Below, one piece after another: positions 40,814 through 64,000 of a stretch of 64,000 nt of DNA. Source of the DNA: Candidatus Zhuqueibacterota bacterium (lineage in GTDB: Bacteria > Zhuqueibacterota > QNDG01 > JABMRT01); NCBI GenBank assembly GCA_013202295.1, contig JABMRT010000101.1, forward strand, positions 3,241 through 67,240, read 5' to 3'. The translations under genes were made by a program, and so were the position numbers. Every line of letters starts with the position of its first letter. Position 1 is the first letter of the stretch. The notes below the pieces were generated by a model. That model ran no database searches and was not told where the DNA came from. It was given only the letters and a program-made list of their open reading frames with translations.

Positions 40814-40853
40814 GATGCAGACTCCTTTAATGTCATTCTGAAAATTTAAGGAA

Positions 40854-46782: not shown

Positions 46783-46840
46783 AGTACCGGATGGAATGAC
46801 ATTTTAATCTCTCAATCTCTCTCTCATTCCATCCGGTACT
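46783..46840 (+). other. Long perfect inverted repeat (17-bp stem, 24-nt loop) in intergenic region; possible terminator/regulatory RNA structure
   Basis: agtaccggatggaatga...tcattccatccggtact. Confidence 0.4.
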
Positions 46841-46954
46841 CATTAATTCAGCCATGTGCTGAGCTTAGGATATTAAATCATATGGAGGATTACTATGATA
46901 TGATGATTCTTGTCTGTTCACTAACTTTGATCAATAAACAAATGGAGGTGTACC

Positions 46955-48412: not shown

Positions 48413-48552
48413 ATCTATTTTTACGGATTATGTTCAGTGACATACAGCAATCCGAACACGACTGATAACCATCTTCCTACCACAGGGGCAGGCGACTTGT
48501 ACCTCATAGTTAAGTCGTCTGCCTAATATAAATTGGGAGATTTGATAAGAAA

Positions 48553-50100
48553 ATGAGCAAGAAAATGAAATTTCAGATCACTACGATACTTTTATTGACT
48601 CTTTGTGTCACTTTGATAATATCATGTGCCAACAAAGATGCCATTGCAAATCCTGGAACGAACTCAAATAACATAAAAATCTATTATATTGACGGAGATT
48701 CCGGCCATGATGACAATGACGGTCTGTCACCGGAATCAGCCTGGAAAAGTCTGGACATGGTCAATGGCCTGGATCTGAAGCCCGGCTGGCAGATTCTCCT
48801 CAAAACAGGGACTATATACAATGGCAGGCTGGTACCAAAAGGATCCGGAGCGGAGGGGCATCCTATCATCATCGATAAGTACGGTGAAGGGGAAAAACCG
48901 CGAATCGATGCCTGGGGCAAACATCCTGAAACGCTTTTACTCAGCAATATCGAGTATTATGAAATCAGCAATCTGGAAATTACCAACCATGGTGGAACAC
49001 GGGCAGCGGGACGCAAAGGTGTTCATGTCACGGTTCAGGACATGGGTGTGGCCCGGCATATTCACCTGAAAAATCTGTATGTGCATGATGTGAATGGCAG
49101 CAATGTCAAGGATGAGGGTGGAGGATATGGCATTCACTGGAGCTGCTCGGGTGACAATGCAAGATTCGATGATCTTCTGATCGCGAATTGCCATTTGGTT
49201 CGGACTGACCGAAATGGGATTACAGGATGGGCGACGGCCTATAGCCCCGGTGGGGATAACTGGAATCCGAGCACAAATGTGGTCATCCGTAATAACCTTC
49301 TGGAAAATATTGGTGGAGACGGGATTGTCCCAATCGGCACGGATGGGTGTCTGGTAGAATACAATACATTGCAGGGCGGCCGTATGCGCGCAGAAGATTA
49401 TGCAGCGGGTATTTGGCCCTGGGGTTGCACGAATACAGTCATTCAGTACAATGAAGTCTCCGGCATGAAAGGAACCAAGGACGGTCAGAGTTTTGATTGT
49501 GATTACGAATGCAGCGGTACGATCATTCAGTATAACTACAGTCATGATAATGATGGCGGATTCCTCCTGGTATGTGGTCCGGCACGGAGTGATTATGGGT
49601 GCCGGGACTCTATCATCCGGTACAATATCAGCCAGAATGATGGCAGCGATTCGAGAATTTTTCATATCAGCGGCGGCAGCGTGAGCAATACACGAATTTA
49701 TAATAACACGATCTATTCTAATCTTGTTAATACACTCATCAAAATGGATAACTGGGAGGGTTGGCCTGAAAACACCTATTTTTATAACAATATTTTTTAT
49801 ATCCCAGGCAGAGCACGTTATTCATGGGGTCAGGCAACCGGAACGGTTTTTAAAAACAATGTGTTTTTTGGAAATCATACCCGACCACCTGATGATGTTG
49901 ATGGAATCACAGAAGATCCTTTGTTAGTCAATCCGGGGAGTGGTTATGATGGTTTTGACACCTTGGATGGATATAAATTGAAAGATGAATCTCCATGCAT
50001 CCGTAGCGGTAAAATAATTTCCGATAATGGCAGGCTGGATTTCTGGGGAAATCCTGTCCCTTCGGATGAGAAGCCGACAATTGGGGCTCATCAGAAATAA
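48553..50100 (+). CDS. Right-handed parallel beta-helix repeat lipoprotein (polysaccharide lyase/hydrolase-like)
   Basis: Lipobox LIISC; repeated beta-helix rungs (NLLENIGGDGI, IIQYNYSHDNDGG, IIRYNISQNDGS, RIYNNTIYSN). Confidence 0.6.
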   Translation: MSKKMKFQITTILLLTLCVTLIISCANKDAIANPGTNSNNIKIYYIDGDSGHDDNDGLSPESAWKSLDMVNGLDLKPGWQILLKTGTIYNGRLVPKGSGAEGHPIIIDKYGEGEKPRIDAWGKHPETLLLSNIEYYEISNLEITNHGGTRAAGRKGVHVTVQDMGVARHIHLKNLYVHDVNGSNVKDEGGGYGIHWSCSGDNARFDDLLIANCHLVRTDRNGITGWATAYSPGGDNWNPSTNVVIRNNLLENIGGDGIVPIGTDGCLVEYNTLQGGRMRAEDYAAGIWPWGCTNTVIQYNEVSGMKGTKDGQSFDCDYECSGTIIQYNYSHDNDGGFLLVCGPARSDYGCRDSIIRYNISQNDGSDSRIFHISGGSVSNTRIYNNTIYSNLVNTLIKMDNWEGWPENTYFYNNIFYIPGRARYSWGQATGTVFKNNVFFGNHTRPPDDVDGITEDPLLVNPGSGYDGFDTLDGYKLKDESPCIRSGKIISDNGRLDFWGNPVPSDEKPTIGAHQK

Positions 50101-50369
50101 ACAGAATACAATAACTCGAAAAACATCGAGATTCAATGAGCGTAAAGTGTTGGACAAGCCGTTACCATGCAGTCCGACGTGACAGGAGATTATTTTCGGG
50201 GGACATATAACTCGAAGTAATTGATATTATAGATAGAGCATCAAGTTGTTTTTTCAGAATATACGTAAATAACCGAAAAGAAAGAATGGATTACACAGAT
50301 ATAGACAGAGATAAACCGATGAGTTGTTATCGTCGGATTTGCTGCATAACGAAATCCAATAAGTTCTCC

Positions 50370-51902
50370 ATGATTTCATTGGTAAGATTTACTTATTGGA
50401 TTGCTTTGGTACTCATTTCAATAATGTTTCATACTTCCTGCAAGAAAAAAAATCCCGTAATACTTGATAATGAAGTAGCAGTCGTGATCCCTATAAAGCC
50501 TCATGGAATTCCTCAATCGACAAATTATACGGTTTGGGTGAATGATGACACCGTTTTTACAGGCCAAGCGGGTAATGAATCTCATAAAACCTATTCCTTC
50601 TGCACATTCGACTTTAGCGGAAGTGTTACTGTTCGCGTGAATTCGGAAATCTCTATCCGAACGATTGATATTCTACCTACTTCAAAAGAAATTAGTTATA
50701 CAATACTGGATAGTAAAACTGTGGAATTCACACTTCAGCGGCCGGAAATGATAACTTTGAAGTTGAATGACAGTAATAACCATACACTTCATTTTTTAAC
50801 AAGCCATCCGGAAACTGATAGGCCGGATCCGGAAAATACAAACGTACTCTATTATGCCGGACCCGGGGAATATGACGTGGGTATACTGGAATTAGCAAGC
50901 AACCAAACCTTGTATATCGAAGCCGGTGCCAAGTTGAATGGCATGGTTCTGATAAAAGATGCACAAAATGTAAAAGTTAAGGGAAGAGGGATGATCGACG
51001 GAACATACAATGAGTTCATAGGGAATCATCCTGAAGGTGACGCGCCCTGGAGACTGGTCTACATGGTCCGTTCGCAAAATATAGTGATTGAGGGCATTAC
51101 GCTATATAATAGTCGCAGCTGGACCATCCACCCCTATTCATGTAATAATTTATGGATTAACAATATCCGGATTCTCAATTGGGAATATGGATCTGATGGA
51201 ACAGATATATCTGCCTGTCAGGAAGTAAAGATCACCGATTCCTTTTACAGGACCAATGATGATCCGATCGCCATAAAAGCATTGAGTTTCGCTGAGAATG
51301 CCTTTTATCCCAATCCAATGATACAGAATATGGATGTGAAGAACATCCTTGTGGAGGGCTGTACCATATGGAATATGTCCTGGGGGAATGTATTTGAAAT
51401 CGGCTACGAACTTAGATGCAATCGGGTCAGTGACATCACTTTCAGGAATTGCGATGCGATCAGGCAGGGCGGCCGCGGTGCCGTATTCAGCATTCACAAC
51501 GCGGATGTCGCTACTGTGGAAAACGTACTTTATGAAGATATTCGAGTCGAAAATGCCGAGGCAGGAATGATTGGCTGCAAGTTGTTTGACCTGGCCATTT
51601 TTTATTCTCTGTTCAGTTATGATTCGGATTGGGGAGATATCAAGCCCAATGAACATTGGGATAATTTGCTGCCTGAACGGGGTATTCCAATCTACAGGGG
51701 AAAAATCAGCAATATAATTTATCGCAACATACAGGTAATGGATGGTAATTTCCCCTACTCAATATTTCATGGTTACGATCAGTTTCATACTATTGAGAGT
51801 GTACTGTTTGAAAATATTACGATTGGGAGCACACAAATTGAAAATAAAGATGAACTGAAACTGGAAATAAATGAGTATGTTGAAAATGTTCAATTCAATT
51901 AG
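50370..51902 (+). CDS. Pectin-lyase-fold glycoside hydrolase, GH28-like, lipoprotein
   Basis: GSDGTDI and RTNDDPIAIKA resemble GH28 NTDG / G(D/H)DCIAIK blocks; probable start at internal Met (lipobox FHTSC). Confidence 0.5.
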   Translation: MISLVRFTYWIALVLISIMFHTSCKKKNPVILDNEVAVVIPIKPHGIPQSTNYTVWVNDDTVFTGQAGNESHKTYSFCTFDFSGSVTVRVNSEISIRTIDILPTSKEISYTILDSKTVEFTLQRPEMITLKLNDSNNHTLHFLTSHPETDRPDPENTNVLYYAGPGEYDVGILELASNQTLYIEAGAKLNGMVLIKDAQNVKVKGRGMIDGTYNEFIGNHPEGDAPWRLVYMVRSQNIVIEGITLYNSRSWTIHPYSCNNLWINNIRILNWEYGSDGTDISACQEVKITDSFYRTNDDPIAIKALSFAENAFYPNPMIQNMDVKNILVEGCTIWNMSWGNVFEIGYELRCNRVSDITFRNCDAIRQGGRGAVFSIHNADVATVENVLYEDIRVENAEAGMIGCKLFDLAIFYSLFSYDSDWGDIKPNEHWDNLLPERGIPIYRGKISNIIYRNIQVMDGNFPYSIFHGYDQFHTIESVLFENITIGSTQIENKDELKLEINEYVENVQFN

Positions 51903-51958
51903 GAGAGAAAAAATAAATGATGTTCTCAACTGTGCTGTAATAATCGAAAGGTACTGAC

Positions 51959-53368
51959 ATGAATGACAAATGCATCAAAAGAGTTTTACTTATGGGTCTG
52001 ATAATTACACTTTTAATGGCTTCCGTGTTGGCTGGAGCCACAATGCCACCCGATCATCCCAACTTTCAGTATACTGGAAGAATCGATTTTTCGTCCCCGG
52101 ACGCCCCTATGCTATACTGGCCTGGCACGTCCATTAAAGCCAATTTTGAGGGAACTTCGCTCAGTGTTTTATTGAATGACCAAAATGGACAATCCTATTA
52201 TAATGTGTTTATCGATGAGGATTATGAGAACCCTTATATTATAGAATGCGGCGCAGGAAACCAGAGTTATATCATTTCGTCCACACTTGCAGATACAATA
52301 CATCCTCTCCTCATTTTTCGTCGTACTGAAGCTTCCACAGGTCCAACCGAATTCTTAGGGATTGAAATTGATGAAGGGAAAACACTGCTTGAACCCCCTG
52401 AACGACCTGAACACCGAATCAAATTTTATGGGAATTCCATTACCTGCGGTATGGGCAATGAAGCGCCTGATAGCGGTTCTGACGATATTATGGAAGAGGA
52501 GAATAATTTTCTGGCATACGGTGCCATTGCATCGCGTCTATTGGATGCAGAGTATATGTGCATTGCAAAAAGTGGAATCGGAATCATGATCAGTTGGTTT
52601 AACATGATTATGCCCGAATACTATTATCGTCTGGATCCTGATGATTCGGAAAGTTACTGGGATTTCAGTCTGTATGTACCGGATGTCGTCGTGATTAATC
52701 TTTTCCAGAATGACAGTTGGTTAATTAACAATTTAAATCCCATTCCAAATTCTATGGAAATTATTAATGCATATGTCAACTTTGTACGACAAATCCGTAC
52801 CGCTCATCCGACAGCCTATATCGTATGCTCTTTGGGCAGCATGGATGCCACGAGACAAGGATCGCCCTGGCCGGGATATATTGAAGACGCCGTAGAACAC
52901 ATGCAAACTGAAGATGATGATGCAAATATTGATGTTTTCTTTTTCCCATTTGAGAATTGGTATAAACATCCACGCGTGCGCCATCATTTACAAATGGGCG
53001 AAGACCTCGCCAATTTTATTGGGGAAAGTACGGGGTGGATTGACGTTTCGGTTGATGGACTCCATTTAAAAACCGATTCACAACCACTATTCTGTCTGGA
53101 ACAAAATTATCCAAATCCGTTTAATGCTTCAACACAAATAACCTTTGAAATTCCACAATCGGGACAAGTCAAATTAAATGTATATAATGCATTGGGGCAC
53201 AGAATCATTTGCCTTGTGAACGAGAATCTTCAATCCGGATTTCATGCAACCACATGGAATGCTCGAGATGCAATGGGAAAAGATGTTTCAAGTGGGATAT
53301 ACTTTTATTCGCTGACATATGGTCAGCAGAAGAATATCACGAATAGTAAAATGCTGTTAATGCGATAA
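51959..53368 (+). CDS. SGNH/GDSL hydrolase (CE2-like carbohydrate esterase: N-terminal beta-sandwich + SGNH) with T9SS sorting domain
   Basis: KFYGNSITCGMGNEAP (block I GNSIT); C-term LEQNYPNPFNASTQITFEIPQSGQVKLNVYNALGHRI. Confidence 0.65.
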   Translation: MNDKCIKRVLLMGLIITLLMASVLAGATMPPDHPNFQYTGRIDFSSPDAPMLYWPGTSIKANFEGTSLSVLLNDQNGQSYYNVFIDEDYENPYIIECGAGNQSYIISSTLADTIHPLLIFRRTEASTGPTEFLGIEIDEGKTLLEPPERPEHRIKFYGNSITCGMGNEAPDSGSDDIMEEENNFLAYGAIASRLLDAEYMCIAKSGIGIMISWFNMIMPEYYYRLDPDDSESYWDFSLYVPDVVVINLFQNDSWLINNLNPIPNSMEIINAYVNFVRQIRTAHPTAYIVCSLGSMDATRQGSPWPGYIEDAVEHMQTEDDDANIDVFFFPFENWYKHPRVRHHLQMGEDLANFIGESTGWIDVSVDGLHLKTDSQPLFCLEQNYPNPFNASTQITFEIPQSGQVKLNVYNALGHRIICLVNENLQSGFHATTWNARDAMGKDVSSGIYFYSLTYGQQKNITNSKMLLMR

Positions 53369-53376
53369 ATAATGAA

Positions 53377-54915
53377 ATGAAAGCGTCCATTTTTCTATTA
53401 GCTAAAATTAAAACACTGTGGAATAAAACCGTCAATTCTTTAAGAGCAACCTCATTGAAACGGATTTTGTTTTTTTGTATTGCGGTTCTGTTACCCTTTC
53501 TCTTTCTGTGCATATTTGAAATCATTCTTCAAGGAATCCAGTATGGTGGCGATCTGTCCCTCTTTGTGCCTGCTCCACTGCCGTTCGAGAATTATCTCAA
53601 AGTCAATCCCAATGTGGGTAAACGATTTTTCGGACGTCAATCCACTCTTCCTGTGCCATCGAATGATGTTTTCCTTCAGCAAAAGCCAGAAAACGGGTAC
53701 CGTATCTTCGTAATGGGCGGATCTACAGCGGTTGGATTTCCATACGGTAATCTACTCATGTTTTCACGAATTCTGCATCGAAGGCTGCAGGATACTTTTC
53801 CGGAAAAACGGATTGAGGTGATGAACACAGCTCTTACGGCTGTAAACTCATGGACGCTCCTCGATTTTCTGGATGAAATTCTCAATGCGGATCCAGACCT
53901 GATTTTAATTTATGCCGGGCACAACGAATATTATGGTGCCCTGGGTGTGAATTCACAGGAGTCTATTGGCCGTTCCCGCCTTCTCATCCGGATGCATTTA
54001 TATGCCAATCGGTTCAGGATCGTCCGGTTCGTCAGAGACCGATTGCGATGGATCAACGGCTTATTTTCTACATCTCCCCCCTTGGAGGGGACTCTGATGC
54101 AGCGGATCGTTCGTGAGAAAGTGATTCCATATCAGAGTCCAATTTATCATGCTGGAATTGAACAGGCAGGAAAAAATTTTAATTTGATACTAAAACGATT
54201 CCATGCAGCTAGGTTGCCGGTAATGGTAGGGGAACTTGTTTCCAATGTGAGGGATAATCCACCTCTCGACGGTGTCGAAGTAAAAGATTCCACGGATGCA
54301 GAGAGAATGTATCACGCTGCGCGAATTCATGAATCTGAAGACCAATTTCACAAGGCTCGCCTTTTTTACACCCTTGCGAAGGATTATGATTCAATCCGGT
54401 TCCGAGCACCAACTACTGTGAATGATACTATCCGGAATCTCGCCGAACGCTATGGTGCTGTGTTAATCCCCCTTCAGAAACTATTTATGGCCCATTCACC
54501 CCATGGACTGATAGGGGACAATCTCATGTGCGATCATTTACATCCAAATATCGATGGATATTTTTTAATGGCTGATGCTTTTTATGAGTCGATGAAAACA
54601 CATTGTTTAATTAAAACGAACTGGGACTCATGTGTGATGTCTGCTGCATGGTATCGTGAAAACTGGCCCATTTCTGATTTGGATCATACAATAGCGGACC
54701 TCATCCTGAAGAATCTGAAAAGTGGCTGGCCATTTCAGTCCATTCAAAACCAAAAATTCTTTTTCCAACAATTTGTACCCCGAAATCCTATTGAGTCTCT
54801 GGCAATGTGCGTCCTTCAAGACAGTATTTCAGTGGGTGAGGCACACTTTTTACTTGCAAAACAGTTTGAATCAAAAAAGGATTTCCTGGCTGCAAAAAAG
54901 AGTATGATGTGCTGA
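53377..54915 (+). CDS. Membrane-anchored SGNH-hydrolase-like protein with TPR-like C-terminus (C-terminus continues in another frame to ~55082: frameshift at A6 run)
   Basis: N-terminal TM; YRIFVMGGSTAVGFPYG, LILIYAGHNEY, DHLHPNIDGYF (block V DxxH); downstream frame encodes ...YDVLTHLVFIEAYHYLWRAEAFVRRSQNKEALEMLEASLACEM... Confidence 0.6.
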   Translation: MKASIFLLAKIKTLWNKTVNSLRATSLKRILFFCIAVLLPFLFLCIFEIILQGIQYGGDLSLFVPAPLPFENYLKVNPNVGKRFFGRQSTLPVPSNDVFLQQKPENGYRIFVMGGSTAVGFPYGNLLMFSRILHRRLQDTFPEKRIEVMNTALTAVNSWTLLDFLDEILNADPDLILIYAGHNEYYGALGVNSQESIGRSRLLIRMHLYANRFRIVRFVRDRLRWINGLFSTSPPLEGTLMQRIVREKVIPYQSPIYHAGIEQAGKNFNLILKRFHAARLPVMVGELVSNVRDNPPLDGVEVKDSTDAERMYHAARIHESEDQFHKARLFYTLAKDYDSIRFRAPTTVNDTIRNLAERYGAVLIPLQKLFMAHSPHGLIGDNLMCDHLHPNIDGYFLMADAFYESMKTHCLIKTNWDSCVMSAAWYRENWPISDLDHTIADLILKNLKSGWPFQSIQNQKFFFQQFVPRNPIESLAMCVLQDSISVGEAHFLLAKQFESKKDFLAAKKSMMC

Positions 54916-55117
54916 CGCATTTGGTGTTCATTGAAGCGTATCACTATCTGTGGCGGGCAGAGGCTTTTGTCAGACGTAGTCAGAACAAAGAGGCATTGGA
55001 AATGCTTGAAGCCAGTTTGGCTTGTGAGATGATTCCCAGAGCCAAAAAACTTCAGTATCGACTGAAACTAGAGGTGAATTGAAATCACTGGATTTATTAG
55101 GCAAGGAGAAACGGTAA

Positions 55118-56914
55118 ATGTCATATTATAATCAAAATATTTCCAAAGATGTTAATCTATCCATCGAGTGGATTCTAATTCTCATTTGTATTTCTTGTTT
55201 TGCCTTTGCTTCAGCAGATCAGAATCAATTGTCAATAGAAGATGGCTGGAAAATGAAGAAAGGCGATAATGCGGATTGGATCAAGCCTGATTTTGATGAC
55301 AGTGGCTGGAAGCCCATTCAGGTCGGGAAAACCTGGGAAAACGCCGGATATAGTGAATATGATGGATATGCTTGGTACAGAATCAGATTTATTATTCCTA
55401 AAAGGGCATTTAAAGGATTAAAGCATGATTTCCTCAGCATATCACTTGGTTTCATTGATGATGTCGATGTAACCTATTTCAATGGAGAAGAAATCGGGAA
55501 ATCAGGTGCGTTCCCACCCGAATATGCCACAGCATATTATAATGAGCGGAAATATCGCATATTTAAATCTTTGATTCGTTGGGATCAAGAAAATGTTATT
55601 GCTGTCAGAATGTATGATGGTCATGGTGAAGGCGGTTTATATATGGGACCGTATATAATCAAAGTGCCTGGGATTGCTGAGATGCTAGATGTGAATTTCG
55701 ACCTCGAGAATTCGGACGGCATCTATCATTCACCTGATCTACTTCCTGTAACTCTAAGTATTCAGAATCATTCTGGTGAAAACAATCAAGTGATATATGA
55801 GTGCACACTCAAGAGTGACTGTGTAGATAAAGAGCTCATTTTTAATAGTAAAAAAAGAATTGTCCAAATTACAGGAGAAAATGAACTCACAGAAGTATAC
55901 AAATTCTATCCACCTAGTCCGGGATTTTATCGCATTGTCACAACTTTAAGTGACACAAATGGTAGTAAAATAACAAAGTCCATAATGTTAGGATATGATC
56001 CCGAAAAAATCAAAACAGAGATTACTCGTGAAGATAACTTTGAGGATTTCTGGAGAGAACGCAAACAGGAACTGGGACGCGTGGATCCTGCTTTTAAGAT
56101 GATCAGGAGCGATATGTCCACAGATGAAGTGGATGTCTATCTTGTTGAAATGCGCAGTTATGGGAATGTGCGTATCAGAGGGTGGTATACGGTTCCTAAA
56201 AATGATGGCCCTCATGCGGCCATTCTGAGTGTGCCTGGATACACTGGTACGATGTGGCCCTATGTGAACAGAACGAATGTGGCTACATTTGCCTTAAATC
56301 CACGCGGGCATGGCAACAGCAAGGATGACATTGATCCGAAAGGTTCAGAATATATGTTTCTGGGATTCGATCCTGAACATCCAGAGAAATATATTTATGC
56401 GGGTGCATATCTAGATTGCATTCGGGCTATTGATTTTCTTTTTTCTCGTCCGGAGATTGACAAATCACGCATCGGTGTAGAGGGTGGAAGTCAGGGGGGT
56501 GGTTTATCTTTCGCAACAGCCGCACTTGACCAGAGAATTATGTTCTGTGCCCCAGATATTCCCTGGCTAGGTGACTGGATCGGTTATTTCGAAGCAGCAA
56601 TATGGTCGGGTGAAAATTATGCAAAGTTAGCCGAAAGTTACCCCGGGCTTACACCGAGTGATATAAACCGCCTTCTGAGTTACTTCGATACAATGAATCT
56701 GGCCAATCGAATAAGATGTCCTGTGTTCATGTCTGTGGGACTCCAGGATGAAGTGTGTCCCCCCCGAAATGCATTTGCAACATATAACCAGGTCAGTTCC
56801 GATAAAGAATACCGTGTATATCCATTCTCCGGCCATGGATTGGGATCCGAGCATTACACTCTCAAGAACAAATGGATGGCAGAAAGACTTGGCGTTGAAG
56901 AAGTGGGACTCTAA
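55118..56914 (+). CDS. CE7 acetyl-xylan esterase/cephalosporin-C deacetylase family with N-terminal GH2-type sugar-binding (galactose-binding-like) domain
   Basis: GGSQGGGLSF (GxSQG), catalytic His context YPFSGHGLGSEH; N-term GWKMKKGDNADWIKPDFDDSGWKPIQVGKTWENAGYSEYDGYAWYRIRF. Confidence 0.75.
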   Translation: MSYYNQNISKDVNLSIEWILILICISCFAFASADQNQLSIEDGWKMKKGDNADWIKPDFDDSGWKPIQVGKTWENAGYSEYDGYAWYRIRFIIPKRAFKGLKHDFLSISLGFIDDVDVTYFNGEEIGKSGAFPPEYATAYYNERKYRIFKSLIRWDQENVIAVRMYDGHGEGGLYMGPYIIKVPGIAEMLDVNFDLENSDGIYHSPDLLPVTLSIQNHSGENNQVIYECTLKSDCVDKELIFNSKKRIVQITGENELTEVYKFYPPSPGFYRIVTTLSDTNGSKITKSIMLGYDPEKIKTEITREDNFEDFWRERKQELGRVDPAFKMIRSDMSTDEVDVYLVEMRSYGNVRIRGWYTVPKNDGPHAAILSVPGYTGTMWPYVNRTNVATFALNPRGHGNSKDDIDPKGSEYMFLGFDPEHPEKYIYAGAYLDCIRAIDFLFSRPEIDKSRIGVEGGSQGGGLSFATAALDQRIMFCAPDIPWLGDWIGYFEAAIWSGENYAKLAESYPGLTPSDINRLLSYFDTMNLANRIRCPVFMSVGLQDEVCPPRNAFATYNQVSSDKEYRVYPFSGHGLGSEHYTLKNKWMAERLGVEEVGL

Positions 56915-57185
56915 TTGATTTCCCTGTTAAAGCATATCATGCTATAAAGGGTGATGGAATAATGGATAATCCATTGATTTATTTTTTTACATTATGAAAC
57001 AAATTTACCATGCATTTAATCATTTTATTTATTATAATTCGATAGGATTATTTGTATTATAATCCGGGGAGAGGAAATATCTCCCCTGTTTATACTCGAC
57101 AATATAAAATCTAAAAACCTGTCTATCGGATGGTTATTTTGGCAGAATAGACAGAATTCAACCTGTTGAAGAGGCATTCATTGAT

Positions 57186-59948
57186 ATGCAAAATTCATTA
57201 GCTCAGAGATTAGCAGAGGGAGGAAGTATGAGAATGGTGAAGGCCGGCACGTGTTTTCTGATTTTGGCTTGCTTACTGATCTGCACGGCAGATGGGTGGG
57301 CACAGACCACCGGAAAAATCGCGGGCCATATTACAGACCAATCCACCGGAGAACCCCTGATCGGTGCGAATGTTATTCTAAAAGGCACACAGATGGGTTC
57401 CGCAACGGATATGAATGGTGACTTTTATATCCTCAATATTTATCCCGGAATGTACTCACTCGAAATCCGCATGATGGGATACAAAACCATAAAGATGGAT
57501 GAAGTTCGCGTCTCGGTGAATCGCACGTCCCGGATTGCTCTCGAAATGGAATTCTCGGTTATCGAAGGTGAAACCGTCTCTGTTTTAGCAGAGCGGATCG
57601 CCATTAAAAAAGATCAGACCAATTCCATCCGCAATATCTCTTCGGATGACATTCAGAAACTCCCGGCCGAGGATATCGATGCGATTGTGCGGATGCAGCC
57701 GGGCATTGCAGGCAACCATTTCCGTGGCGGTAGAAGCAATGAAGCTGTCTATATGATAGACGGCATCAAGGTCACGGAGTCTTTCCGTCAGGAAAACCGT
57801 TCAGTGGAAGTCAATCCTGAAGCGGTCGCGGACATTGAGGTGATCACAGGAACCTTCAACGCGGAATATGGCGATGCCATGAGTGGTGTGGTGAATATCA
57901 TCACGAAAGAAGGACGGCGGGCGGTTGAAGGATCTATCACCGGATATCTCGGTAATTATCTAACCAGCCATGGCGATAAGTTTGTTGGATTATCCAATTC
58001 AGAAGTTGATCGCATCAAGGACATCAAATTCAATTTGTCCGGACCTGTTTGGGAAGATAAACTCACCTTTTTACTGGATGGCCGTCTTAATGATGATCAG
58101 GGCTATCTGAACGGTATCTATCATTTCAATCCTCACGATTACAGCGACTATGCACCACAGGACCGCACTCTATGGCACACGGAGGACACCGGCGATGAAT
58201 CCTACGTCTCACTGAGCGATCGCATCGATCTCGTGGTTTTTGGCAAGCTGACCTACAAACCGGCTCCAGCAATTAAGATGTCTCTGTCCTCCACCTATAA
58301 TCAAAGAGAGAGCCAGTGGTACAACCACACCTATAAATACAATCCGTATGGAATGAGCCACAGTGAGAATGAATCGATGATGTGGAGTTATCAGCTCAAT
58401 CACATGATCGGATCCAACTCATTTTACGAGCTCAAACTTTCGTATTCAGATTATCAAACCGGAGATTATGTGTTTGAAGATCCGCTGGATCCACGATATG
58501 TTCACGACGAGTACAATCGGAGCAATGGATTCAGCACAGGGGGTCAGAATAAGGGCCATACCGTGAGAACCGAGAAAACACTGAATTTAAAACTGGATTA
58601 CTCCCGGCAGATCAATAAACGGCACTTTCTGAAAACCGGGATCGATCTGAGCCGCATCACTTTGGACCAGGACTATCGAAGTATCCAGAATGCGTATCGG
58701 GGCACAAGCCTTGAGTACACAGGATATTACGATGGCAATAATGAGGTGCAGTTCCCCTACTACGAACCCACAACCTATTCAGATTCATCGACCTATTCGG
58801 ATATCTACACCCATGAACCCATCAAGTTCGCCTTGTTTGTACAGGACAAGATGGAATATGAATCCATGGTCATCAATCTGGGTGTACGGTTCGATTATTT
58901 CGATGCGGATGCGATTTACCCCACCAATTACCGGAATCCGGCCAACTTGCTGCATCAGCTTGAATCATCACGATACAGCACCTATCCGAAAGCCGATCCG
59001 CAGTATCAGATCAGTCCACGATTGGGTCTTTCTTATCAGCTCGGCGAATCGGCCTTGTTGCGATTTTCATATGGCCATTTTCTGCAGCTGCCCCCGCTGG
59101 ATTATTTTTACCAGAATAATTCACATCTGGTTCAGGTGCCCGATTTTACAACTAGAATGGGCAATCCGAATCTCAATGTTCAGAAGACCATTCAATATGA
59201 AGTGGGGCTCTGGCAGCAGCTCAACGACATGATGAGCGTTGAAGTCGCGGTTTATTATCGAGACATTTATGATTTGGTGACTGCCACTATCTTTACAACC
59301 TATGATCAGATTAGATATGGCGTCTATACCAATTCGGAATATGGAAACGCCCGTGGCCTGGAGGTCAAATATGACTTCCGCCATAAATCCCTGATGGCGG
59401 GCATGAATTATACACTCGGATATACCCGCGGCGTGGCCGACGATCCACAGATGAGTTTTAACCGGGCTGGCAACAGCATGGACCCGGTCAACAAGATGAT
59501 TCCCATGGCCTGGGACCAGCGCCACGTATTCAACACCTTTGCCGGCGTTCAAAAAGAGACATTCGGCGCCACAGCGATGCTCTATTATTTCTCTGGTGAG
59601 GCTTATACCTGGAATCCAATTGCGCAAAGCCCGCTCGCCCGTATCAATCTCTTCCCGAATAACCAGCACAAACCCGCGCGTTATATTCTCGATCTGAACG
59701 CCTTTTATCAGTTCCTGACTATGGGACGCATGAAGATGAGATTGACATTAATGGCGTATAATTTGTTGGATCGCCTGAATGAAAACAATGTCAATGGCGC
59801 GACAGGCCGGGCTGACCAGTTCATTGTGCAGGAATCCGATCTGGCTGCCCATCGCAGTGACTATCATGAATACAGCGATCAGGTGCTCAATCCCTCAAAT
59901 TTCTCGAATCCACGAATCGTGAAACTGGGCATCGGTGTGACGTTTTAA
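57186..59948 (+). CDS. TonB-dependent outer-membrane receptor (CarbopepD_reg + plug + 22-strand barrel)
   Basis: GKIAGHITDQSTGEPLIGANVILKGTQMGSATDMNGDFYI; plug EAVYMIDGIKV...; C-terminal ...KLGIGVTF; start likely MRMVKAG at 57228. Confidence 0.85.
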   Translation: MQNSLAQRLAEGGSMRMVKAGTCFLILACLLICTADGWAQTTGKIAGHITDQSTGEPLIGANVILKGTQMGSATDMNGDFYILNIYPGMYSLEIRMMGYKTIKMDEVRVSVNRTSRIALEMEFSVIEGETVSVLAERIAIKKDQTNSIRNISSDDIQKLPAEDIDAIVRMQPGIAGNHFRGGRSNEAVYMIDGIKVTESFRQENRSVEVNPEAVADIEVITGTFNAEYGDAMSGVVNIITKEGRRAVEGSITGYLGNYLTSHGDKFVGLSNSEVDRIKDIKFNLSGPVWEDKLTFLLDGRLNDDQGYLNGIYHFNPHDYSDYAPQDRTLWHTEDTGDESYVSLSDRIDLVVFGKLTYKPAPAIKMSLSSTYNQRESQWYNHTYKYNPYGMSHSENESMMWSYQLNHMIGSNSFYELKLSYSDYQTGDYVFEDPLDPRYVHDEYNRSNGFSTGGQNKGHTVRTEKTLNLKLDYSRQINKRHFLKTGIDLSRITLDQDYRSIQNAYRGTSLEYTGYYDGNNEVQFPYYEPTTYSDSSTYSDIYTHEPIKFALFVQDKMEYESMVINLGVRFDYFDADAIYPTNYRNPANLLHQLESSRYSTYPKADPQYQISPRLGLSYQLGESALLRFSYGHFLQLPPLDYFYQNNSHLVQVPDFTTRMGNPNLNVQKTIQYEVGLWQQLNDMMSVEVAVYYRDIYDLVTATIFTTYDQIRYGVYTNSEYGNARGLEVKYDFRHKSLMAGMNYTLGYTRGVADDPQMSFNRAGNSMDPVNKMIPMAWDQRHVFNTFAGVQKETFGATAMLYYFSGEAYTWNPIAQSPLARINLFPNNQHKPARYILDLNAFYQFLTMGRMKMRLTLMAYNLLDRLNENNVNGATGRADQFIVQESDLAAHRSDYHEYSDQVLNPSNFSNPRIVKLGIGVTF

Positions 59949-59971
59949 GATATTTGAAAAGGAGCTGATAG

Positions 59972-62900
59972 ATGATAAAGAGAATCATTTGGACGATTTT
60001 AATGCTCACCCTGATCGGAACCGGTCTTATTCAAGGTCAGGGCAGAGAGTATGAAGGACCCATTGATCCGGCCGGAGATCAGGCTGGTATCCGTGAGTCT
60101 CATATGACAGGCAATCGTTTTCATCTTTATTTTAACAATCAGGGACGACAGGGTCACTGGCCCTTTTTGGATGGTTCCCGCTTTCCCGGCAATTCACAGA
60201 AAGGACTGGACCTGTTTGACAGCAACATCCTCATAGTCGGTGCGCGTGTTTATATTGAGCAAGACACCATCCCGGTGACGGACATGAACGACATTCAGTC
60301 ACGCGCACCGGGTGAACTCGACACCCTCTATTACTGTCTTTCCGGACGCACGGATCATGCGATCGACATGAGCCCGGACGGCACGGTGGAGTGGGGATTC
60401 CAGCCGGTGTTCGGTTACTTCAATGTCAGCAGCGAAAGCCCGGCCATGAGCACCGATCCAAATTCCTGGCCGCCTGAAGGCTGGCCCTCAACCGGATTGG
60501 AAAGACAATGGGCCGGTCAGTGGAAGGGTCGTTTCGGCCCCTATTCCTACGCGCATCTGGAATCCTACTATGTGATGAATGACGCTCAGGATCAGGAAAA
60601 TCTCCAACCCGATCTCCCCGCTCGCTACTCTCCACGTGCAGAGAGCAATTTCAAGATTGGAGATATAAGACCGGAAGTGACCACCCAGTACGGACTTCCC
60701 TGGGGCGGTGTGGGTATCCGGGTGGCAACTCGCGGATACCAGTGGGACAATCCCCAGACACGCGACATTATTTTCTGGGAATACGACGTGACCAATGTGT
60801 CTGATTATAATCTGCCCGAAGTGGTGTTCGGATTTTTAATGGATCTGGGAGTCGGCCACTTCTTTCAGAATTCAGATGGTGAAGATGATGTGGGTAGTTT
60901 TAATGACGAGCTGGATCTCTCCTATTGCTGGGATCTGAACGGCGAAGGATATTCAAGCTATTTAGTGGGTACACTGGGATTTGCTTTTCTTGAAAGTCCG
61001 GGATTGCCCGAGGATCAGGTCGACAATGACAAAGATGGCATCACGGATGAAAAACGGGACAACAAGGCCACCCAGCTGGTCGATCCCTATTATCACATTA
61101 CCAATCTTCAAGACTTTCTCGATGCATACAGTTTGACTGAAGAGCTTCTCAAAGAACACTGGGATGCTGATGAAGATCAGGATTGGGAAGACGGCAATGA
61201 CATCAATGGCAATGGTATTTACGATTCGGGAGAGTTGGCCGGTGATGATGTCGGTTTGGACGGCATTGCCCCGGGTGAAGAAAATTACCCAGGCCCGGAC
61301 GCAGACGGCACCGAAGGCAATCACAAACCGGATTATATTGAAGGTGTGAATGCCGAACCCAATTTTGCCATTACAGATGTTTCTGAATCTGACATGCTCG
61401 GTTTGACATCGTTCCATTTGTTTCTTCATCATCAGGGTGGAGAGCGATGGGTCACGCATGATGAAACCTGTTACGACCATTTGACCGACGGTATCCTGGA
61501 TGACGCCTATAGCGATCCTACAAACCTGAATCAATCTTTCTCTTCGGGCACATTTATGCTGCCGCATGGCCGGACGGAGCGCATCTCAATGGCGGTAATT
61601 GCCTCGTTCGAAAACCTGGCCACGTTGAACGATGAAAGGATCGCGCCTATCCAGTTTGAGCGTAAAAAAGTGGTGCAGACGATTTATGAAGCGGATTACC
61701 GATTCGCGCGTCCTCCGATCATGCCTTTACTGACTGCCACACCCAGTGATGGTCGTGTGCTGCTCTCATGGGACAATCGGTCCGACCGTGACACTCGGGA
61801 ATCCCTGCTGAATGGCGAGAACGACTTTGAGGGATACCGCCTTTACAAATCCACGGATATTAACTTCTCTGATGCTGAGGTACTCAGAGACGGCTTCGGC
61901 AATCCCGCAGGTAAACTGCCCATTTTTATGTGTGATATAAAAAATGATTATTTCGGATTTACCGATTTCGCCTATGTGGAAGGTGAAGGGTATTATCTGG
62001 GCGACAATACCGGTATCCAGCATTATTACATCGACGAAAACGTGGACAATGGCCGTACCTATTATTACTATCTGACCGCGTATGATCACGGTATTGAGAT
62101 CATGGATATCGCGCCGTCCGAGAATGTAGCCACCATCATTCAGGATGAGAACGAAGTCATCACCTTTAACACACCCAATGTAGCCATAGTCACACCGCGT
62201 CCTCCAGTGAATGATTACATCGCGCCTGAGATTGAACTCCTCACCAACATGGAGGATATCGTGGGCACCGGCACAGTCACAGTCGACGTGGCCGCACCCC
62301 AGGACATGAAAGAAAATCACACCTACAAACTCTCATTTATTATAGACTCACTCAGCCGGAATCCCAGGATACCGGAAGATCTGGAATATATGAATTCGGG
62401 ATTCCGAATTTATGATCTGACAGAAGATACACTGGTCTATGAAGAGAATCCCGAACATTTTGTGCGCATCAATATCCTGTCGGAACAAACCTCCGCAACC
62501 CAGATCCGGTATTATCTGAATGATTTGCGGGAGGTCCGGTCAGATATTTTTGACGGATTGCAGCTTCGATTAAACGATCTGACCAAAGAATCCGTCTGGG
62601 ATTCCCTGGGCGGCACCGGCTGGATTCAGGGATTCGCTCCCATGACTGTAGAGATCAACCGGTCGAAAATCGCCCGTTTCCCCTGGCAGTATGATCTTGT
62701 CTTTACAACTGAGGAAGAGGGATATACCCCACAATACACAGGAAGGTGGATACAAGATGCTGAAAACGATAGAATAGACGGCACCATCTTCAAGGAGCAG
62801 ATGCTGCCCTTCTATGTCGAGAACAAATTTTATACCGATACGTCAACCGGAGAATTTAAAAAGTTGGAAGTCATTTGCGTTGATGCCAATGAAAACGAAA

Positions 62901-63445
62901 CCTTTGATCTGATGGAAGATGAAATGGTAGTTGGGTTTACGTATAGGGAAAACAAAACCTGGCTCGCCACGCTTTTCACATTCAATTTCAGAGATCTCAC
63001 TGTGGACGTAATGCCTAATCCCGGCGATGTATTCCGGATCGACTGTATCCGGCCCTTCACCGCAACTGACACTGTGCTGTTCAAAGTCATCCCCACGGAT
63101 GAGCTGGACAAGGAACGCGTTGAAAATCTGGACAAGATTGTGGTCGTGCCCAATCCCTACATCATGACAAACAGCATGGAACCGGCCGTGAGAAACAACG
63201 CACTTAATCAACGGCGGCGCCTGATGTTCAAAAATATCCCCGCCACCTGCACAATCAAGATTTTTACCATGAGCGGCTATCTGGTAGATACCATTGAAGT
63301 CTCCAATCCGGATGACAATGGTATTATACACTGGGATCTGCTCACCAAAGAAAATCTGGAAATCGCTGCGGGAGTTTACGTGTATCATATCAAATCCCAC
63401 AAGACGGGTGATGAAAAAGTGGGCAAATTCGCGGTGATCAAATAA
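59972..63445 (+). CDS. Large (1157 aa) secreted protein with thrombospondin-type-3/dockerin-like Ca-binding Asp-rich repeats and T9SS-type C-terminal sorting domain
   Basis: Signal peptide; DNDKDGITDEKRD, DADEDQDWEDGNDINGNGIYDSGE, DDVGLDGIAPGEENYPGPDADG; C-term VVPNPYIMTNS...CTIKIFTMSGYLVDTIEV...GVYVYHIK. Confidence 0.7.
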   Translation: MIKRIIWTILMLTLIGTGLIQGQGREYEGPIDPAGDQAGIRESHMTGNRFHLYFNNQGRQGHWPFLDGSRFPGNSQKGLDLFDSNILIVGARVYIEQDTIPVTDMNDIQSRAPGELDTLYYCLSGRTDHAIDMSPDGTVEWGFQPVFGYFNVSSESPAMSTDPNSWPPEGWPSTGLERQWAGQWKGRFGPYSYAHLESYYVMNDAQDQENLQPDLPARYSPRAESNFKIGDIRPEVTTQYGLPWGGVGIRVATRGYQWDNPQTRDIIFWEYDVTNVSDYNLPEVVFGFLMDLGVGHFFQNSDGEDDVGSFNDELDLSYCWDLNGEGYSSYLVGTLGFAFLESPGLPEDQVDNDKDGITDEKRDNKATQLVDPYYHITNLQDFLDAYSLTEELLKEHWDADEDQDWEDGNDINGNGIYDSGELAGDDVGLDGIAPGEENYPGPDADGTEGNHKPDYIEGVNAEPNFAITDVSESDMLGLTSFHLFLHHQGGERWVTHDETCYDHLTDGILDDAYSDPTNLNQSFSSGTFMLPHGRTERISMAVIASFENLATLNDERIAPIQFERKKVVQTIYEADYRFARPPIMPLLTATPSDGRVLLSWDNRSDRDTRESLLNGENDFEGYRLYKSTDINFSDAEVLRDGFGNPAGKLPIFMCDIKNDYFGFTDFAYVEGEGYYLGDNTGIQHYYIDENVDNGRTYYYYLTAYDHGIEIMDIAPSENVATIIQDENEVITFNTPNVAIVTPRPPVNDYIAPEIELLTNMEDIVGTGTVTVDVAAPQDMKENHTYKLSFIIDSLSRNPRIPEDLEYMNSGFRIYDLTEDTLVYEENPEHFVRINILSEQTSATQIRYYLNDLREVRSDIFDGLQLRLNDLTKESVWDSLGGTGWIQGFAPMTVEINRSKIARFPWQYDLVFTTEEEGYTPQYTGRWIQDAENDRIDGTIFKEQMLPFYVENKFYTDTSTGEFKKLEVICVDANENETFDLMEDEMVVGFTYRENKTWLATLFTFNFRDLTVDVMPNPGDVFRIDCIRPFTATDTVLFKVIPTDELDKERVENLDKIVVVPNPYIMTNSMEPAVRNNALNQRRRLMFKNIPATCTIKIFTMSGYLVDTIEVSNPDDNGIIHWDLLTKENLEIAAGVYVYHIKSHKTGDEKVGKFAVIK

Positions 63446-63457
63446 AGGGGTATGACA

Positions 63458-64000
63458 ATGAAAATACATATTAAAATTATTGGAATCATTCTGATCAGCC
63501 TGCCGCTCCTGGCCCAGCAACCTATTCGCGTGGGTACCACTGCCGCCGAATTTCTGTCGATTGGGTACGGCGCCGTGGGATGCGCGATGGGAGACGCCTA
63601 TGTCAGTGTGGTGGATGACGTCTCTGGAATTTACTGGAATCCGGGCGGTTTGGCCTTCATGGATCAGAGCCAAACGATGTTCACCTATCAGCCATGGTTC
63701 GCAGATATTAACACATTCTTCGCCGCAACCGGATTGGTACTGCCCGGTGTCGGAAATATTGCCATCGGCGTCATCGGTGTCGATTATGGCGAAATGGATG
63801 TAATCACGGTTGAAGATCAAGATGGCACGGGTGAAATGTTCTCAGTACGGGATTTCGCATTCAATCTATCATACAGTCGAAGGCTGGCCCAGTGGTTCGG
63901 TTTTGGTGCGACTGCCAAATATATTTCTTCGAGTATCTGGCATGAAACCGCTTCTGCGTTTGCGTTTGACATGGGCGTAATCATCAAAACCGCTTTCTTC
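63458..64000 (+). CDS. PorV/LptO-family-like outer-membrane beta-barrel protein (partial, continues beyond window)
   Basis: Signal peptide then GTTAAEFLSIGYGAVGCAMGDAYVSVVDDVSGIYWNPGGLAF matching PorV/UPF0164 N-terminal consensus (G.saa.FL.iG.gARa.amGgAf.A.adDasa.ywNPAgLa). Confidence 0.55.
   Translation, partial: MKIHIKIIGIILISLPLLAQQPIRVGTTAAEFLSIGYGAVGCAMGDAYVSVVDDVSGIYWNPGGLAFMDQSQTMFTYQPWFADINTFFAATGLVLPGVGNIAIGVIGVDYGEMDVITVEDQDGTGEMFSVRDFAFNLSYSRRLAQWFGFGATAKYISSSIWHETASAFAFDMGVIIKTAFF

What the first reader, a model, noticed from the sequence alone, without database searches (positions are those of the whole stretch)
57186..64000. TonB-dependent receptor followed by a 1157-aa Ca-binding T9SS cargo protein and a PorV-like barrel: possible SusCD-analogous uptake unit
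The position that a SusD-like lipoprotein would occupy downstream of a SusC-type TBDR is taken here by a giant secreted protein. That protein carries thrombospondin-3/dockerin-like Asp-rich Ca-binding repeats and a T9SS sorting domain. It is immediately followed by a PorV/LptO-family gene, PorV being the T9SS outer-membrane shuttle that binds sorting domains. A TBDR / surface-anchored Ca-binding protein / dedicated PorV paralog trio would be a non-SusD solution for glycan capture at the cell surface.
Basis: partly seen in the sequence, partly recalled or inferred. Interest (0 to 1): 0.6.

Follow-up and report, generated by a model that had tools for sequence, protein, structure and literature searches.

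The report
TonB receptor, giant surface protein, PorV-like barrel
The window ends in a three-gene unit (a TonB-dependent outer-membrane importer, an uncharacterised 1157-residue all-beta protein and a paralog of the type IX secretion barrel PorV) that recurs almost unchanged in hundreds of genomes of four bacterial phyla, usually beside sugar-degrading enzymes, and is probably an undescribed nutrient-capture machine that does the job SusC/SusD does in Bacteroides.

Summary
The three ORFs exist as described, and the organism is a candidate division KSB1 MAG. The receptor has CarboxypepD_reg, Plug and barrel domains but is not SusC-family (79.9 bits against a 368 cut-off). The 1157-aa protein has no TSP_3 or dockerin hit, only a conserved Asp-rich insert with two DxDxDG motifs. 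Its C-terminal domain is a divergent sorting-domain-like fold, below the TIGR04183 and Pfam cut-offs and closest to the retained C-terminal domains of PorZ and PorU. The third ORF is a clear PorV/PorQ-family member, but is neither PorV, PorQ nor FadL.

The central idea holds up. The trio is conserved in nearly all of 87 related loci from KSB1, Calditrichota, Marinimicrobia and Ignavibacteria. It is multi-copy per genome and diversifies as a unit. It usually lies beside LacI regulators and T9SS-tagged CAZymes. The big protein has a galactose-mutarotase-like supersandwich, an Fn3-like domain, a variable region of unknown fold, and a C-terminal domain that is its most conserved part. Many loci add a SurA-like lipoprotein.

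The likely mechanism is a surface capture protein held on its own PorV-like barrel beside the importer. This is inferred, not shown. I found no publication describing it.

The parts
57066..57086 (+). Terminator-like hairpin between the upstream AXE1-like esterase gene (ends 56914) and the receptor gene. It suggests the trio is its own transcription unit.
   Evidence: consensus scan only; 7 pairs, 5 G-C.
57186..59948 (+). TonB-dependent receptor, 920 aa. Alternative starts are M15 and M17. The signal peptide ends at ...GWA/QTTGK. Domains: CarboxypepD_reg N-terminal extension aa 45-133, TonB-box-like GETVSV near aa 128, Plug aa 141-235, barrel aa 366-860, C-terminal Phe.
   Evidence: PF00593 scores 105 bits, PF07715 42.5 and PF13715 65.3. 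SusC TIGR04056 scores only 79.9 against a cut-off of 368.
59972..63445 (+). 1157-aa secreted all-beta protein of an uncharacterised family. It has a Sec signal peptide (aa 1-22) and no lipobox; the first Cys is at aa 122.
   Evidence: It is identical to NCBI HQ585_08205, annotated 'hypothetical protein'. There is no Pfam or NCBIfam family and no PDB sequence relative.
60044..61006 (+). Conserved N-terminal beta domain (about aa 25-345, continued at about aa 477-580) with a galactose-mutarotase-like supersandwich fold.
61007..61399 (+). Asp-rich insert (aa 346-476). It contains DNDKDGITDE, HWDADEDQDW, DINGNGIYD and GDDVGLDG. It is a putative Ca2+-binding loop region.
   Evidence: invariant D351/D353/D355/G356/E360, D398/D400/D402/D404, D425/D426/G428/D430/G431. 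Column identity is 0.75. pLDDT is low. There is no TSP_3 hit.
61724..62206 (+). Fn3-like beta-sandwich region (aa 585-745; NDFEGYxLY ... GRTYYYxLxAYD).
   Evidence: Secondary structure of the model and the conserved motif in the alignment. The domain assignment is by motif and inference. Column identity is 0.71.
62207..63106 (+). Variable region (aa 746-1045). It is the least conserved part and a candidate specificity determinant. The fold has no close relative in the PDB.
63134..63442 (+). C-terminal CTD-like beta-sandwich (aa 1055-1157). It has VVPNPY, an invariant LNQRRR insert, GVYVYH, and ends in GKFAVIK.
   Evidence: It is the most conserved part of the protein (0.77). It gives sub-threshold hits to TIGR04183 and to the C-termini of the PorZ and PorU models.
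63452..64000 (+). PorV/PorQ-family outer-membrane barrel gene, cut by the window end (182 aa of about 355). The likelier start is 63458. The signal peptide ends at ...PLLA/QQP.
   Evidence: Full-length orthologs score 186-209 bits on NF033709 but only 77-92 on PorV (cut-off 250) and 75-86 on PorQ (cut-off 220). The only PDB sequence relative is F. johnsoniae PorV 6h3i_F, E 7e-8.
44156..56914 (+). Upstream co-directional polysaccharide-degradation genes: LacI-type regulator fragment, CBM9+CTD, CBM4_9+CTD, beta-helix, GH28, CE2+CTD, GDSL and an AXE1-like esterase. This is the likely substrate-processing part of the locus (pectin/xylan-type).

Best explanation
The three genes form one conserved outer-membrane nutrient-uptake module, used mostly for glycans, in non-Bacteroidota FCB-group bacteria.

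The TonB-dependent receptor imports oligomers released by the T9SS-secreted enzymes encoded nearby. The 1157-aa protein crosses the inner membrane by Sec. It is then taken to the cell surface through its divergent sorting-domain-like C-terminus. It stays there non-covalently, docked by that uncleaved and unusually conserved domain on its own PorV/PorQ-family barrel. This is the way PorZ is held by PorQ and PorU by PorV.

On the surface it acts as the capture or hand-over partner of the receptor, which is the functional slot of SusD or the SGBPs. The conserved supersandwich, Ca-loop and Fn3 core would provide the common architecture. The variable aa 746-1045 region, which lies outside the core shared with distant relatives that instead carry beta-propeller modules, would provide substrate specificity. 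In many loci a SurA-like lipoprotein probably chaperones assembly.

Shown here: gene content, strict synteny, co-diversification, domain folds and genomic context. Inferred: surface location, T9SS dependence, docking on the barrel, ligand binding and contact with the receptor.
For: - Synteny. The TBDR is adjacent in 69 of 75 loci and the PorV-like gene in 75 of 80. The remainder are TBDR-PorV-big permutations, tandem copies of the big gene, or one inserted gene. Only L048 lacks the barrel.
- Distant relatives keep the arrangement. Relatives of 1490-1592 aa sit between the same kind of TBDR and a PorV-like gene.
- Spread. 391 loci were found in GTDB species representatives of KSB1, Calditrichota, Marinimicrobia and Ignavibacteria. 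718 50%-identity clusters score E<=1e-30.
- Multi-copy and co-diversifying. Up to four loci of one MAG appear among the 80 kept. In-genome paralogs are as divergent (0.42-0.52) in all three proteins as cross-phylum pairs. Mantel r is 0.90 for TBDR-big, 0.85 for TBDR-PorV and 0.72 for big-PorV, each p=0.001.
- Context. Most neighbourhoods read (the window's and most of six related ones) hold LacI and/or CAZymes, many with bona fide T9SS CTDs.
- C-terminus. It is the most conserved region. It matches the PorZ and PorU C-terminal domains and TIGR04183 in 23-24 of 24 members. Foldseek's top hits are PorZ 5m11 and PorU 6za2.
- Published precedent. The PorU CTD stays bound to PorV and the PorZ CTD to PorQ, and cognate PorV-like barrels may protect CTDs from cleavage (PMC10202324). 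A FadL-like barrel, BamG, holds a surface protein beside BamA (PMC12578637).
Against: - No experiment or complex prediction supports any protein-protein contact.
- The C-terminal domain fails the curated cut-offs of TIGR04183 and PF18962. It aligns poorly with the same genome's canonical CTDs (hhalign 21.8%). T9SS export is therefore not established and a periplasmic location is not excluded.
- The variable region has no known carbohydrate-binding fold, and no CBM HMM hits anywhere.
- The supersandwich fold occurs in enzymes and in non-sugar proteins such as YidC.
- Some contexts are not glycan loci: L088 has peptidases and L004 has nucleoside hydrolases.
- Distance-matrix correlations are inflated by shared phylogeny.
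- The window's own barrel gene is truncated.
Confidence: 0.5

Rival explanations
1. The big protein is a surface or periplasmic enzyme of a new carbohydrate-active or other hydrolytic family, not a binding or hand-over protein. The receptor then simply imports its products.
Against: The model is all-beta, with no (alpha/alpha)6, TIM-barrel or other catalytic domain. The conserved core is the same in loci with unrelated enzyme sets: pectin-type, GH16/GH3 beta-glucan, nucleoside hydrolases and peptidases. That does not fit a single catalytic specificity.
Confidence: 0.15
2. The module is an export or assembly device rather than an importer. In this reading the receptor acts like Myxococcus Oar, a CarboxypepD_reg-type TBDT needed for protein secretion. 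The barrel and the SurA-like lipoprotein serve secretion or biogenesis of the big protein, which would be an adhesin or surface-layer component.
For: Oar is a TBDT required for PopC secretion (PMC6434023, abstract seen). A SurA-like lipoprotein is adjacent in 46 of 67 loci. The receptor is not SusC family. One Foldseek hit is an S-layer protein, 7ptp.
Against: Several divergent copies occur per genome. The module sits beside LacI regulators, inner-membrane sugar symporters (SSF in L089, MFS in L002) and substrate-specific CAZyme sets. These are hallmarks of uptake loci. No similarity to Oar beyond the shared domains was tested.
Confidence: 0.12
3. The linkage carries no mechanistic coupling. 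In this reading the barrel is a FadL-type channel or a general T9SS shuttle, the big protein is an ordinary cleaved T9SS cargo, and the receptor works alone as in Xanthomonas-type CUT loci.
For: The PorV family is FadL-like, and one ortholog shows a weak Toluene_X hit (22.4 bits). Many neighbouring genes are ordinary T9SS cargo.
Against: Adjacency is near-universal across four phyla, after deep duplication, and in remote relatives. The C-terminal domain is the most conserved part of the protein, unlike a disposable signal. The barrel is a distinct subfamily, not the housekeeping PorV.
Confidence: 0.08

Closest known systems
SusC/SusD (RagA/RagB) core of Bacteroidota polysaccharide utilization loci
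   Same: Both have a TonB-dependent transporter with a CarboxypepD_reg N-terminal extension, plug and barrel. In both, the next gene encodes a large secreted partner. Both are embedded in a regulator-plus-CAZyme locus and occur as many divergent copies per genome.
   Different: The receptor fails the SusC/RagA HMM (79.9 against 368 bits). The partner is an 1157-aa all-beta protein with no lipobox and no SusD/TPR domain, and it has a CTD-like tail. A third obligatory gene encodes a PorV-family barrel. The host phyla are KSB1, Calditrichota, Marinimicrobia and Ignavibacteria.
PorZ-PorQ and PorU-PorV pairs of the T9SS attachment complex (P. gingivalis)
   Same: Both involve a large beta-rich surface protein whose C-terminal Ig-like domain would be kept and used to sit on a PorV/PorQ-family 14-strand barrel. 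The window protein's C-terminus scores best against the C-termini of the PorZ and PorU models.
   Different: PorZ and PorU are single-copy machinery components for A-LPS attachment. They are not linked to a TonB receptor or to CAZyme loci. Here the barrel passes only the family-level model, not the PorV or PorQ equivalogs. Retention of the domain is inferred, not shown.
SprB/SprF-type cargo with a cognate PorP/SprF barrel (type B CTD)
   Same: Both have a dedicated outer-membrane barrel encoded next to the specific large cargo it handles.
   Different: The barrel family differs (PorP/SprF, not PorV/PorQ), and so does the CTD type. The function is gliding adhesin, with no receptor partner.
BamG-BamH in the Bacteroidota BAM complex
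   Same: A FadL-like 14-strand barrel packs against a larger barrel and holds a surface-exposed protein through its extracellular loops (PMC12578637). This is the same geometry proposed here.
   Different: The partners are unrelated and the function is different (OMP assembly). No homology was tested.
TBDR-containing carbohydrate utilization (CUT) loci of Xanthomonas and Caulobacter
   Same: Both are non-SusC TonB receptors in sugar-utilization loci with LacI-type regulators and no SusD.
   Different: Those loci have no conserved giant partner protein, no PorV-like barrel and no T9SS.

Membership tests
TonB-dependent receptor (Pfam PF00593 + PF07715) | Barrel and plug HMMs above the gathering score | tested here: met
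   105.3 bits (cut-off 27) and 42.5 bits (cut-off 23.9).
SusC/RagA family (TIGR04056) | Whole-protein score at or above 368.25 bits | tested here: not met
   79.9 bits, matching only aa 44-245.
SusC/RagA family (TIGR04056) | Adjacent SusD-family lipoprotein gene | tested here: not met
   The downstream gene has no SusD Pfam hit and no lipobox Cys. No SusD appears in the other neighbourhoods read.
SusC/RagA family (TIGR04056) | N-terminal CarboxypepD_reg extension before the TonB box and plug | tested here: met
   PF13715 scores 65.3 bits at aa 45-133. The best PDB sequence hit is a SusC-homolog NTE, 9hfj_A, E 1.1e-5.
T9SS type A sorting domain (TIGR04183 / PF18962) | HMM score at or above the curated cut-off (23 / 27 bits) | tested here: not met
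   14.9 bits on the full protein and 19.9 on the isolated domain. PF18962 gives no hit for the window protein and hits 1 of 24 relatives. hhalign against the window's own CTDs gives 21.8%.
T9SS type A sorting domain (TIGR04183 / PF18962) | C-terminal ~80-100-aa Ig-like beta-sandwich with PNP, GxY and terminal K-x-x-x-K-type motifs | tested here: inconclusive
   The model shows several beta strands at about aa 1057-1155 with pLDDT about 90. VVPNPY, GVYVYH and GKFAVIK are present, along with an unusual invariant LNQRRR insert. 24 of 24 relatives give sub-threshold TIGR04183 and PorZ-C-terminus hits.
T9SS type A sorting domain (TIGR04183 / PF18962) | Secretion depends on the T9SS | not testable with these tools
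   This needs genetics or proteomics. The organism encodes at least five canonical CTD proteins in this window, so a T9SS is likely present.
PorV/PorQ family (NF033709) | Score at or above 90 bits | tested here: met
   135.9 bits on the truncated window ORF. Full-length orthologs score 186-209 bits.
PorV proper (NF033710) / PorQ proper (NF033711) | Equivalog score at or above 250 / 220 bits | tested here: not met
   The window ORF scores 70.7 and 82.7 bits. Full-length orthologs score 77-92 and 75-86 bits.
FadL/OmpP1 (PF03349 Toluene_X) | Score at or above 29.7 bits | tested here: not met
   13.4 bits for the window ORF. The best ortholog scores 22.4 bits.
Thrombospondin type 3 repeat / dockerin Ca-binding repeats | Repeat HMM hit, or a tandem array of DxDxDGxxDxxD units | tested here: not met
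   No TSP_3 or dockerin hit at E<=0.1. There are only two DxDxDG motifs. The segment has no PDB relative.
Galactose-mutarotase-like supersandwich fold | Structural match to the fold | tested here: met
   [not shown]

The most novel reading that the evidence does not exclude
A previously undescribed class of outer-membrane uptake machine that spans several phyla. In it, a type-IX-style C-terminal domain permanently docks a giant modular beta-protein on a dedicated PorV paralog beside a TonB-dependent transporter. This arrangement replaces the SusD lipoprotein. It would be the main 'PUL core' of Marinimicrobia, KSB1, Calditrichota and Ignavibacteria, with exchangeable head domains (a fold with no close PDB relative, or beta-propellers) that set substrate specificity, and often a private SurA-like chaperone.
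Probability: 0.4. Interest if true: 0.85.

Novelty: new variant of a known kind. Interest (0 to 1): 0.7.

Why it matters
SusC/SusD pairs are the marker used to find and count polysaccharide utilization loci, and they are essentially confined to Bacteroidota. If this trio is the equivalent core in Marinimicrobia (abundant in the ocean interior), KSB1, Calditrichota and Ignavibacteria, it gives a searchable marker for glycan-uptake loci in phyla whose carbon-cycling role is currently inferred from enzymes alone.

It would also extend PorV-family barrels from T9SS shuttle and attachment parts to permanent anchors of nutrient-capture proteins. The family has at least 718 50%-identity clusters at E<=1e-30, yet it has no Pfam or NCBIfam model and every source name shown for it reads 'hypothetical protein'.

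Tried and rejected
- Completing the cut PorV-like gene from the source contig failed. Only a 5.3-kb copy of the locus was retrievable, and the in-genome paralog P0038 was not on record.
- TSP_3/dockerin reading: rejected, with no HMM or PDB support.
- SusC membership: rejected.
- Canonical type A CTD: not supported by Pfam or by hhalign against the window's own CTDs.
- Profile search of the whole family against PDB sequences: no hit.
- The variable region modelled alone gave no meaningful fold match, so a CBM assignment was dropped.
- The afdb50 fold library was unavailable.
- I first suspected that the about-500-aa lipoprotein found downstream in related loci was a SusD analog. Its only similarities are to the SurA N-terminal domain (28.2 against 28.5 bits) and weakly to a PPIase domain, so I read it as a chaperone.
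- Rfam found nothing in 56800-64000.
- Sigma-70 promoter matches are uninformative for this phylum.
- Seven literature searches found no description of the module. The Caldithrix and Melioribacter genome papers do not mention it.
Full report
**What is in the sequence**

The region holds three co-directional ORFs. The first is 57186..59948 (920 aa). The second is 59972..63445 (1157 aa). The third starts at 63452 or 63458 and runs off the window end (182 aa seen). The gaps between them are 23 nt and 6-12 nt. A terminator-like hairpin at 57066..57086 separates the trio from the upstream esterase gene. The 1157-aa protein is identical to HQ585_08205, a 'hypothetical protein' of a candidate division KSB1 MAG.

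**The receptor**

ORF1 has CarbopepD_reg_2 (aa 45-133), Plug (aa 141-235) and the TonB-dependent barrel (aa 366-860), all above the Pfam cut-offs. A TonB-box-like GETVSV follows the N-terminal domain and is conserved as GExVVV in orthologs.

It is not a SusC/RagA protein by NCBI's criterion. TIGR04056 scores 79.9 bits against a cut-off of 368 and covers only the N-terminal 200 residues. PDB sequence relatives are weak. The best is the isolated N-terminal extension of a SusC homolog.

**The big protein**

It has a Sec signal peptide and no lipobox; the first Cys is at residue 122. No Pfam family reaches significance, including TSP_3 and dockerin. A profile of 60 family members finds nothing among PDB sequences.

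An AlphaFold2 model built on that alignment (pLDDT 78, pTM 0.67) is all-beta and multi-domain. The domains read as follows.

- **Asp-rich insert (aa 346-476).** It is highly conserved and has two canonical DxDxDG motifs and several invariant Asp/Gly clusters. Ca2+ binding is plausible from the general properties of DxDxDG loops but was not tested. The segment has no PDB relative.
- **Fn3-like region (aa 585-745).** This is assigned by motif and secondary structure.
- **C-terminal domain (aa 1055-1157).** It is the most conserved part of the protein (0.77).

**Is the C-terminus a T9SS sorting domain?**

By curated thresholds it is not. TIGR04183 scores 14.9 bits on the full protein and 19.9 on the isolated domain, against a cut-off of 23. 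PF18962 gives no hit. Profile-profile comparison with the five canonical CTDs encoded in this same window gives only 21.8% probability over 21 columns.

The signal is consistent, however. All 24 family C-termini tested hit the C-terminal ends of the PorZ model (best 1.9e-9) and TIGR04183 (best 4.7e-5), and 23 of 24 hit the PorU model. Foldseek's top two T9SS-related hits are PorZ 5m11 and PorU 6za2. The PNPY, GxYxY and terminal K-F-A-V-I-K motifs are present, interrupted by an invariant LNQRRR insert.

I read it as a divergent CTD-like domain. PorZ and PorU are the two T9SS proteins whose CTDs are not cleaved and which stay bound to PorQ and PorV (PMC10202324).

**The barrel**

The truncated ORF3 passes the PorV/PorQ family model (135.9 bits against 90) and Pfam PorV (32.3 against 27). 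FadL/Toluene_X scores 13.4 against 29.7. Full-length orthologs score 186-209 bits on the family model but fail the PorV (77-92 against 250) and PorQ (75-86 against 220) equivalogs. The only PDB sequence relative is F. johnsoniae PorV. It is therefore a distinct paralog subfamily.

**Conservation**

- The big-protein family has at least 1599 hits in the word-indexed search.
- In the exhaustive search, 718 50%-identity clusters score E<=1e-30 and 3267 score E<=1e-10.
- There are 391 loci among GTDB species representatives. They are labelled KSB1/Zhuqueibacterota, Calditrichota, Marinimicrobia and Ignavibacteria, including a Melioribacter roseus MAG.
- In 87 loci, the receptor is immediately upstream in 69 of 75 with enough sequence, and the barrel immediately downstream in 75 of 80.
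- Of the eight flagged loci, seven are variants rather than true exceptions. They are three and two tandem copies of the big gene (L015, L031), the order receptor-barrel-big (L064, L076, L087), or one inserted gene (L021, L062). Only L048 lacks a barrel within 5.9 kb.
- Remote relatives of 1490-1592 aa share mainly profile positions ~340-800 and the C-terminal domain. Some carry Reg_prop or BNR-like beta-propeller hits. They sit in the same receptor-big-barrel arrangement.

**Co-diversification**

Several MAGs carry two to four loci among the 80 kept, and the window's MAG has a second copy (P0038). In-genome paralogs differ by 0.42-0.52 in all three proteins, as much as cross-phylum pairs, and their nearest relatives lie in other genomes. 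Pairwise distance matrices correlate at r=0.90 (receptor-big), 0.85 (receptor-barrel) and 0.72 (big-barrel), with Mantel p=0.001. The receptor-big correlation is still 0.71 among deep pairs. Shared phylogeny inflates such numbers. Together with the deep paralogy, though, they indicate that the module duplicates and diverges as a unit.

**Context**

- **The window.** A LacI-type gene, CBM9+CTD, CBM4_9+CTD, beta-helix, GH28, CE2+CTD, GDSL and an AXE1-like esterase lie upstream.
- **Other loci.** LacI plus sugar-modifying enzymes and an MFS transporter (L002). Nucleoside hydrolase-PKD-CTD proteins plus LacI (L004). GH3/GH16/CBM9-CTD/GH106 (L006). GH16/GH3/SSF symporter (L089). GH16/GH2/GH5 (L090). 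Peptidases plus GH20 (L088).
- **SusD.** No SusD gene appears in any of these neighbourhoods. M. roseus is reported to have one canonical SusCDE operon as well (PMC3534657), so the module coexists with SusCD rather than excluding it.

**A fourth component in related loci**

A roughly 500-aa protein with a lipoprotein-type N-terminus (…LLAQC) lies directly after the barrel gene in 46 of 67 loci with enough sequence, and somewhere in the locus in 53 of 67. Its only similarities are near-threshold SurA N-terminal domain (28.2 against 28.5 bits) and weak PPIase hits. I read it as a SurA-like chaperone, not a SusD analog. It is absent beside the closest relatives of the window's module (L002, L009, L010, L088), and the window ends too early to tell.

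**Mechanism**

The best-supported reading is an outer-membrane uptake unit. The receptor imports substrate. The big protein is displayed on the surface, held through its conserved and probably uncleaved CTD-like domain by its cognate PorV-family barrel. There it captures or hands over substrate.

The precedents are PorZ-PorQ and PorU-PorV (PMC10202324), and the FadL-like BamG that holds the surface protein BamH beside BamA (PMC12578637).

What is shown is synteny, co-diversification, folds and context. Localisation, T9SS dependence, docking, ligand binding and receptor contact are inferred.

The rivals are an enzyme role for the big protein, an export or assembly device of the Oar type (PMC6434023), and uncoupled neighbours. 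They are less consistent with three observations: the absence of a catalytic domain, the uptake-type context with multiple copies, and the near-universal linkage.

**Novelty**

Seven full-text searches and the Caldithrix and Melioribacter genome papers gave no description of this module. The library covers open-access papers only, so absence is not proof. The components belong to known kinds: TonB receptor, PorV family, CTD-like domain and PUL-like locus. The combination, the big-protein family and its variable domain appear undescribed. I rate it a new variant of a known kind, with interest 0.7.

Noticed in passing
Related loci, e.g. L089:13566-15065, L006:14853-16355, L004:19841-21367, L090:17842-19347: A conserved lipoprotein of about 500 aa (N-terminus ...LLAQC) with near-threshold SurA_N and weak PPIase similarity. 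It follows the PorV-like gene in 46 of 67 loci. It is a probable fourth (chaperone) component of the module. It is absent beside the closest relatives of the window's trio, and the window is cut before it could appear.
   Followed up: partly
window 20643..21665 (+): A 340-aa protein that fuses a CarboxypepD_reg domain (aa 38-121) to a TonB C-terminal domain (aa 161-239). The N-terminal domain is of the same type as the receptor's N-terminal extension. This is an unusual TonB-like architecture.
   Followed up: no
L015:3-9480 and L031:3827-8974: Three and two tandem copies of the big-protein gene, followed (in L015) by a single PorV-like gene. Gene-level stoichiometry of big protein to barrel is therefore not always 1:1.
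   Followed up: partly
L064, L076, L087 (Melioribacter roseus MAG): A permuted gene order: receptor, PorV-like, then big protein.
   Followed up: partly
P0167, P0172, P0185 (1476-1592 aa), P0257 (1490 aa); loci L091, L092: Distant family members share the Asp-rich-to-Fn3 core or the C-terminal part, and carry Reg_prop (two-component-regulator propeller) or BNR/YCF48-like propeller hits. They still sit between a CarboxypepD_reg TBDR and a PorV-like gene. L092 has a second TBDR plus large-protein pair directly downstream.
   Followed up: partly
[not shown]
   Followed up: partly
window 39452..42251 (-), 45188..48412 (+), 51959..53368 (+), 28584..32165 (-): Many secreted CAZyme or CBM proteins carry canonical T9SS CTDs (GH12, two CBM9, CBM4_9, CE2) or FlgD_ig-type C-termini. 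The organism therefore relies heavily on a T9SS-type pathway outside Bacteroidota.
   Followed up: no
window 6863..10924 (-): A 1352-aa GH2 beta-galactosidase with C-terminal CHB_HEX_C/Fn3_assoc repeats and a PA14 domain. Two further GH2 genes and a YdjC gene lie nearby.
   Followed up: no
Hits P0119 and loci L009, L010/L023/L081, L048: Some records carrying the module are labelled Methanococcoides sp., Lentisphaeria, Caldisericaceae or Deferribacteres. Given the FCB-specific gene content, these are likely binning or labelling errors.
   Followed up: no
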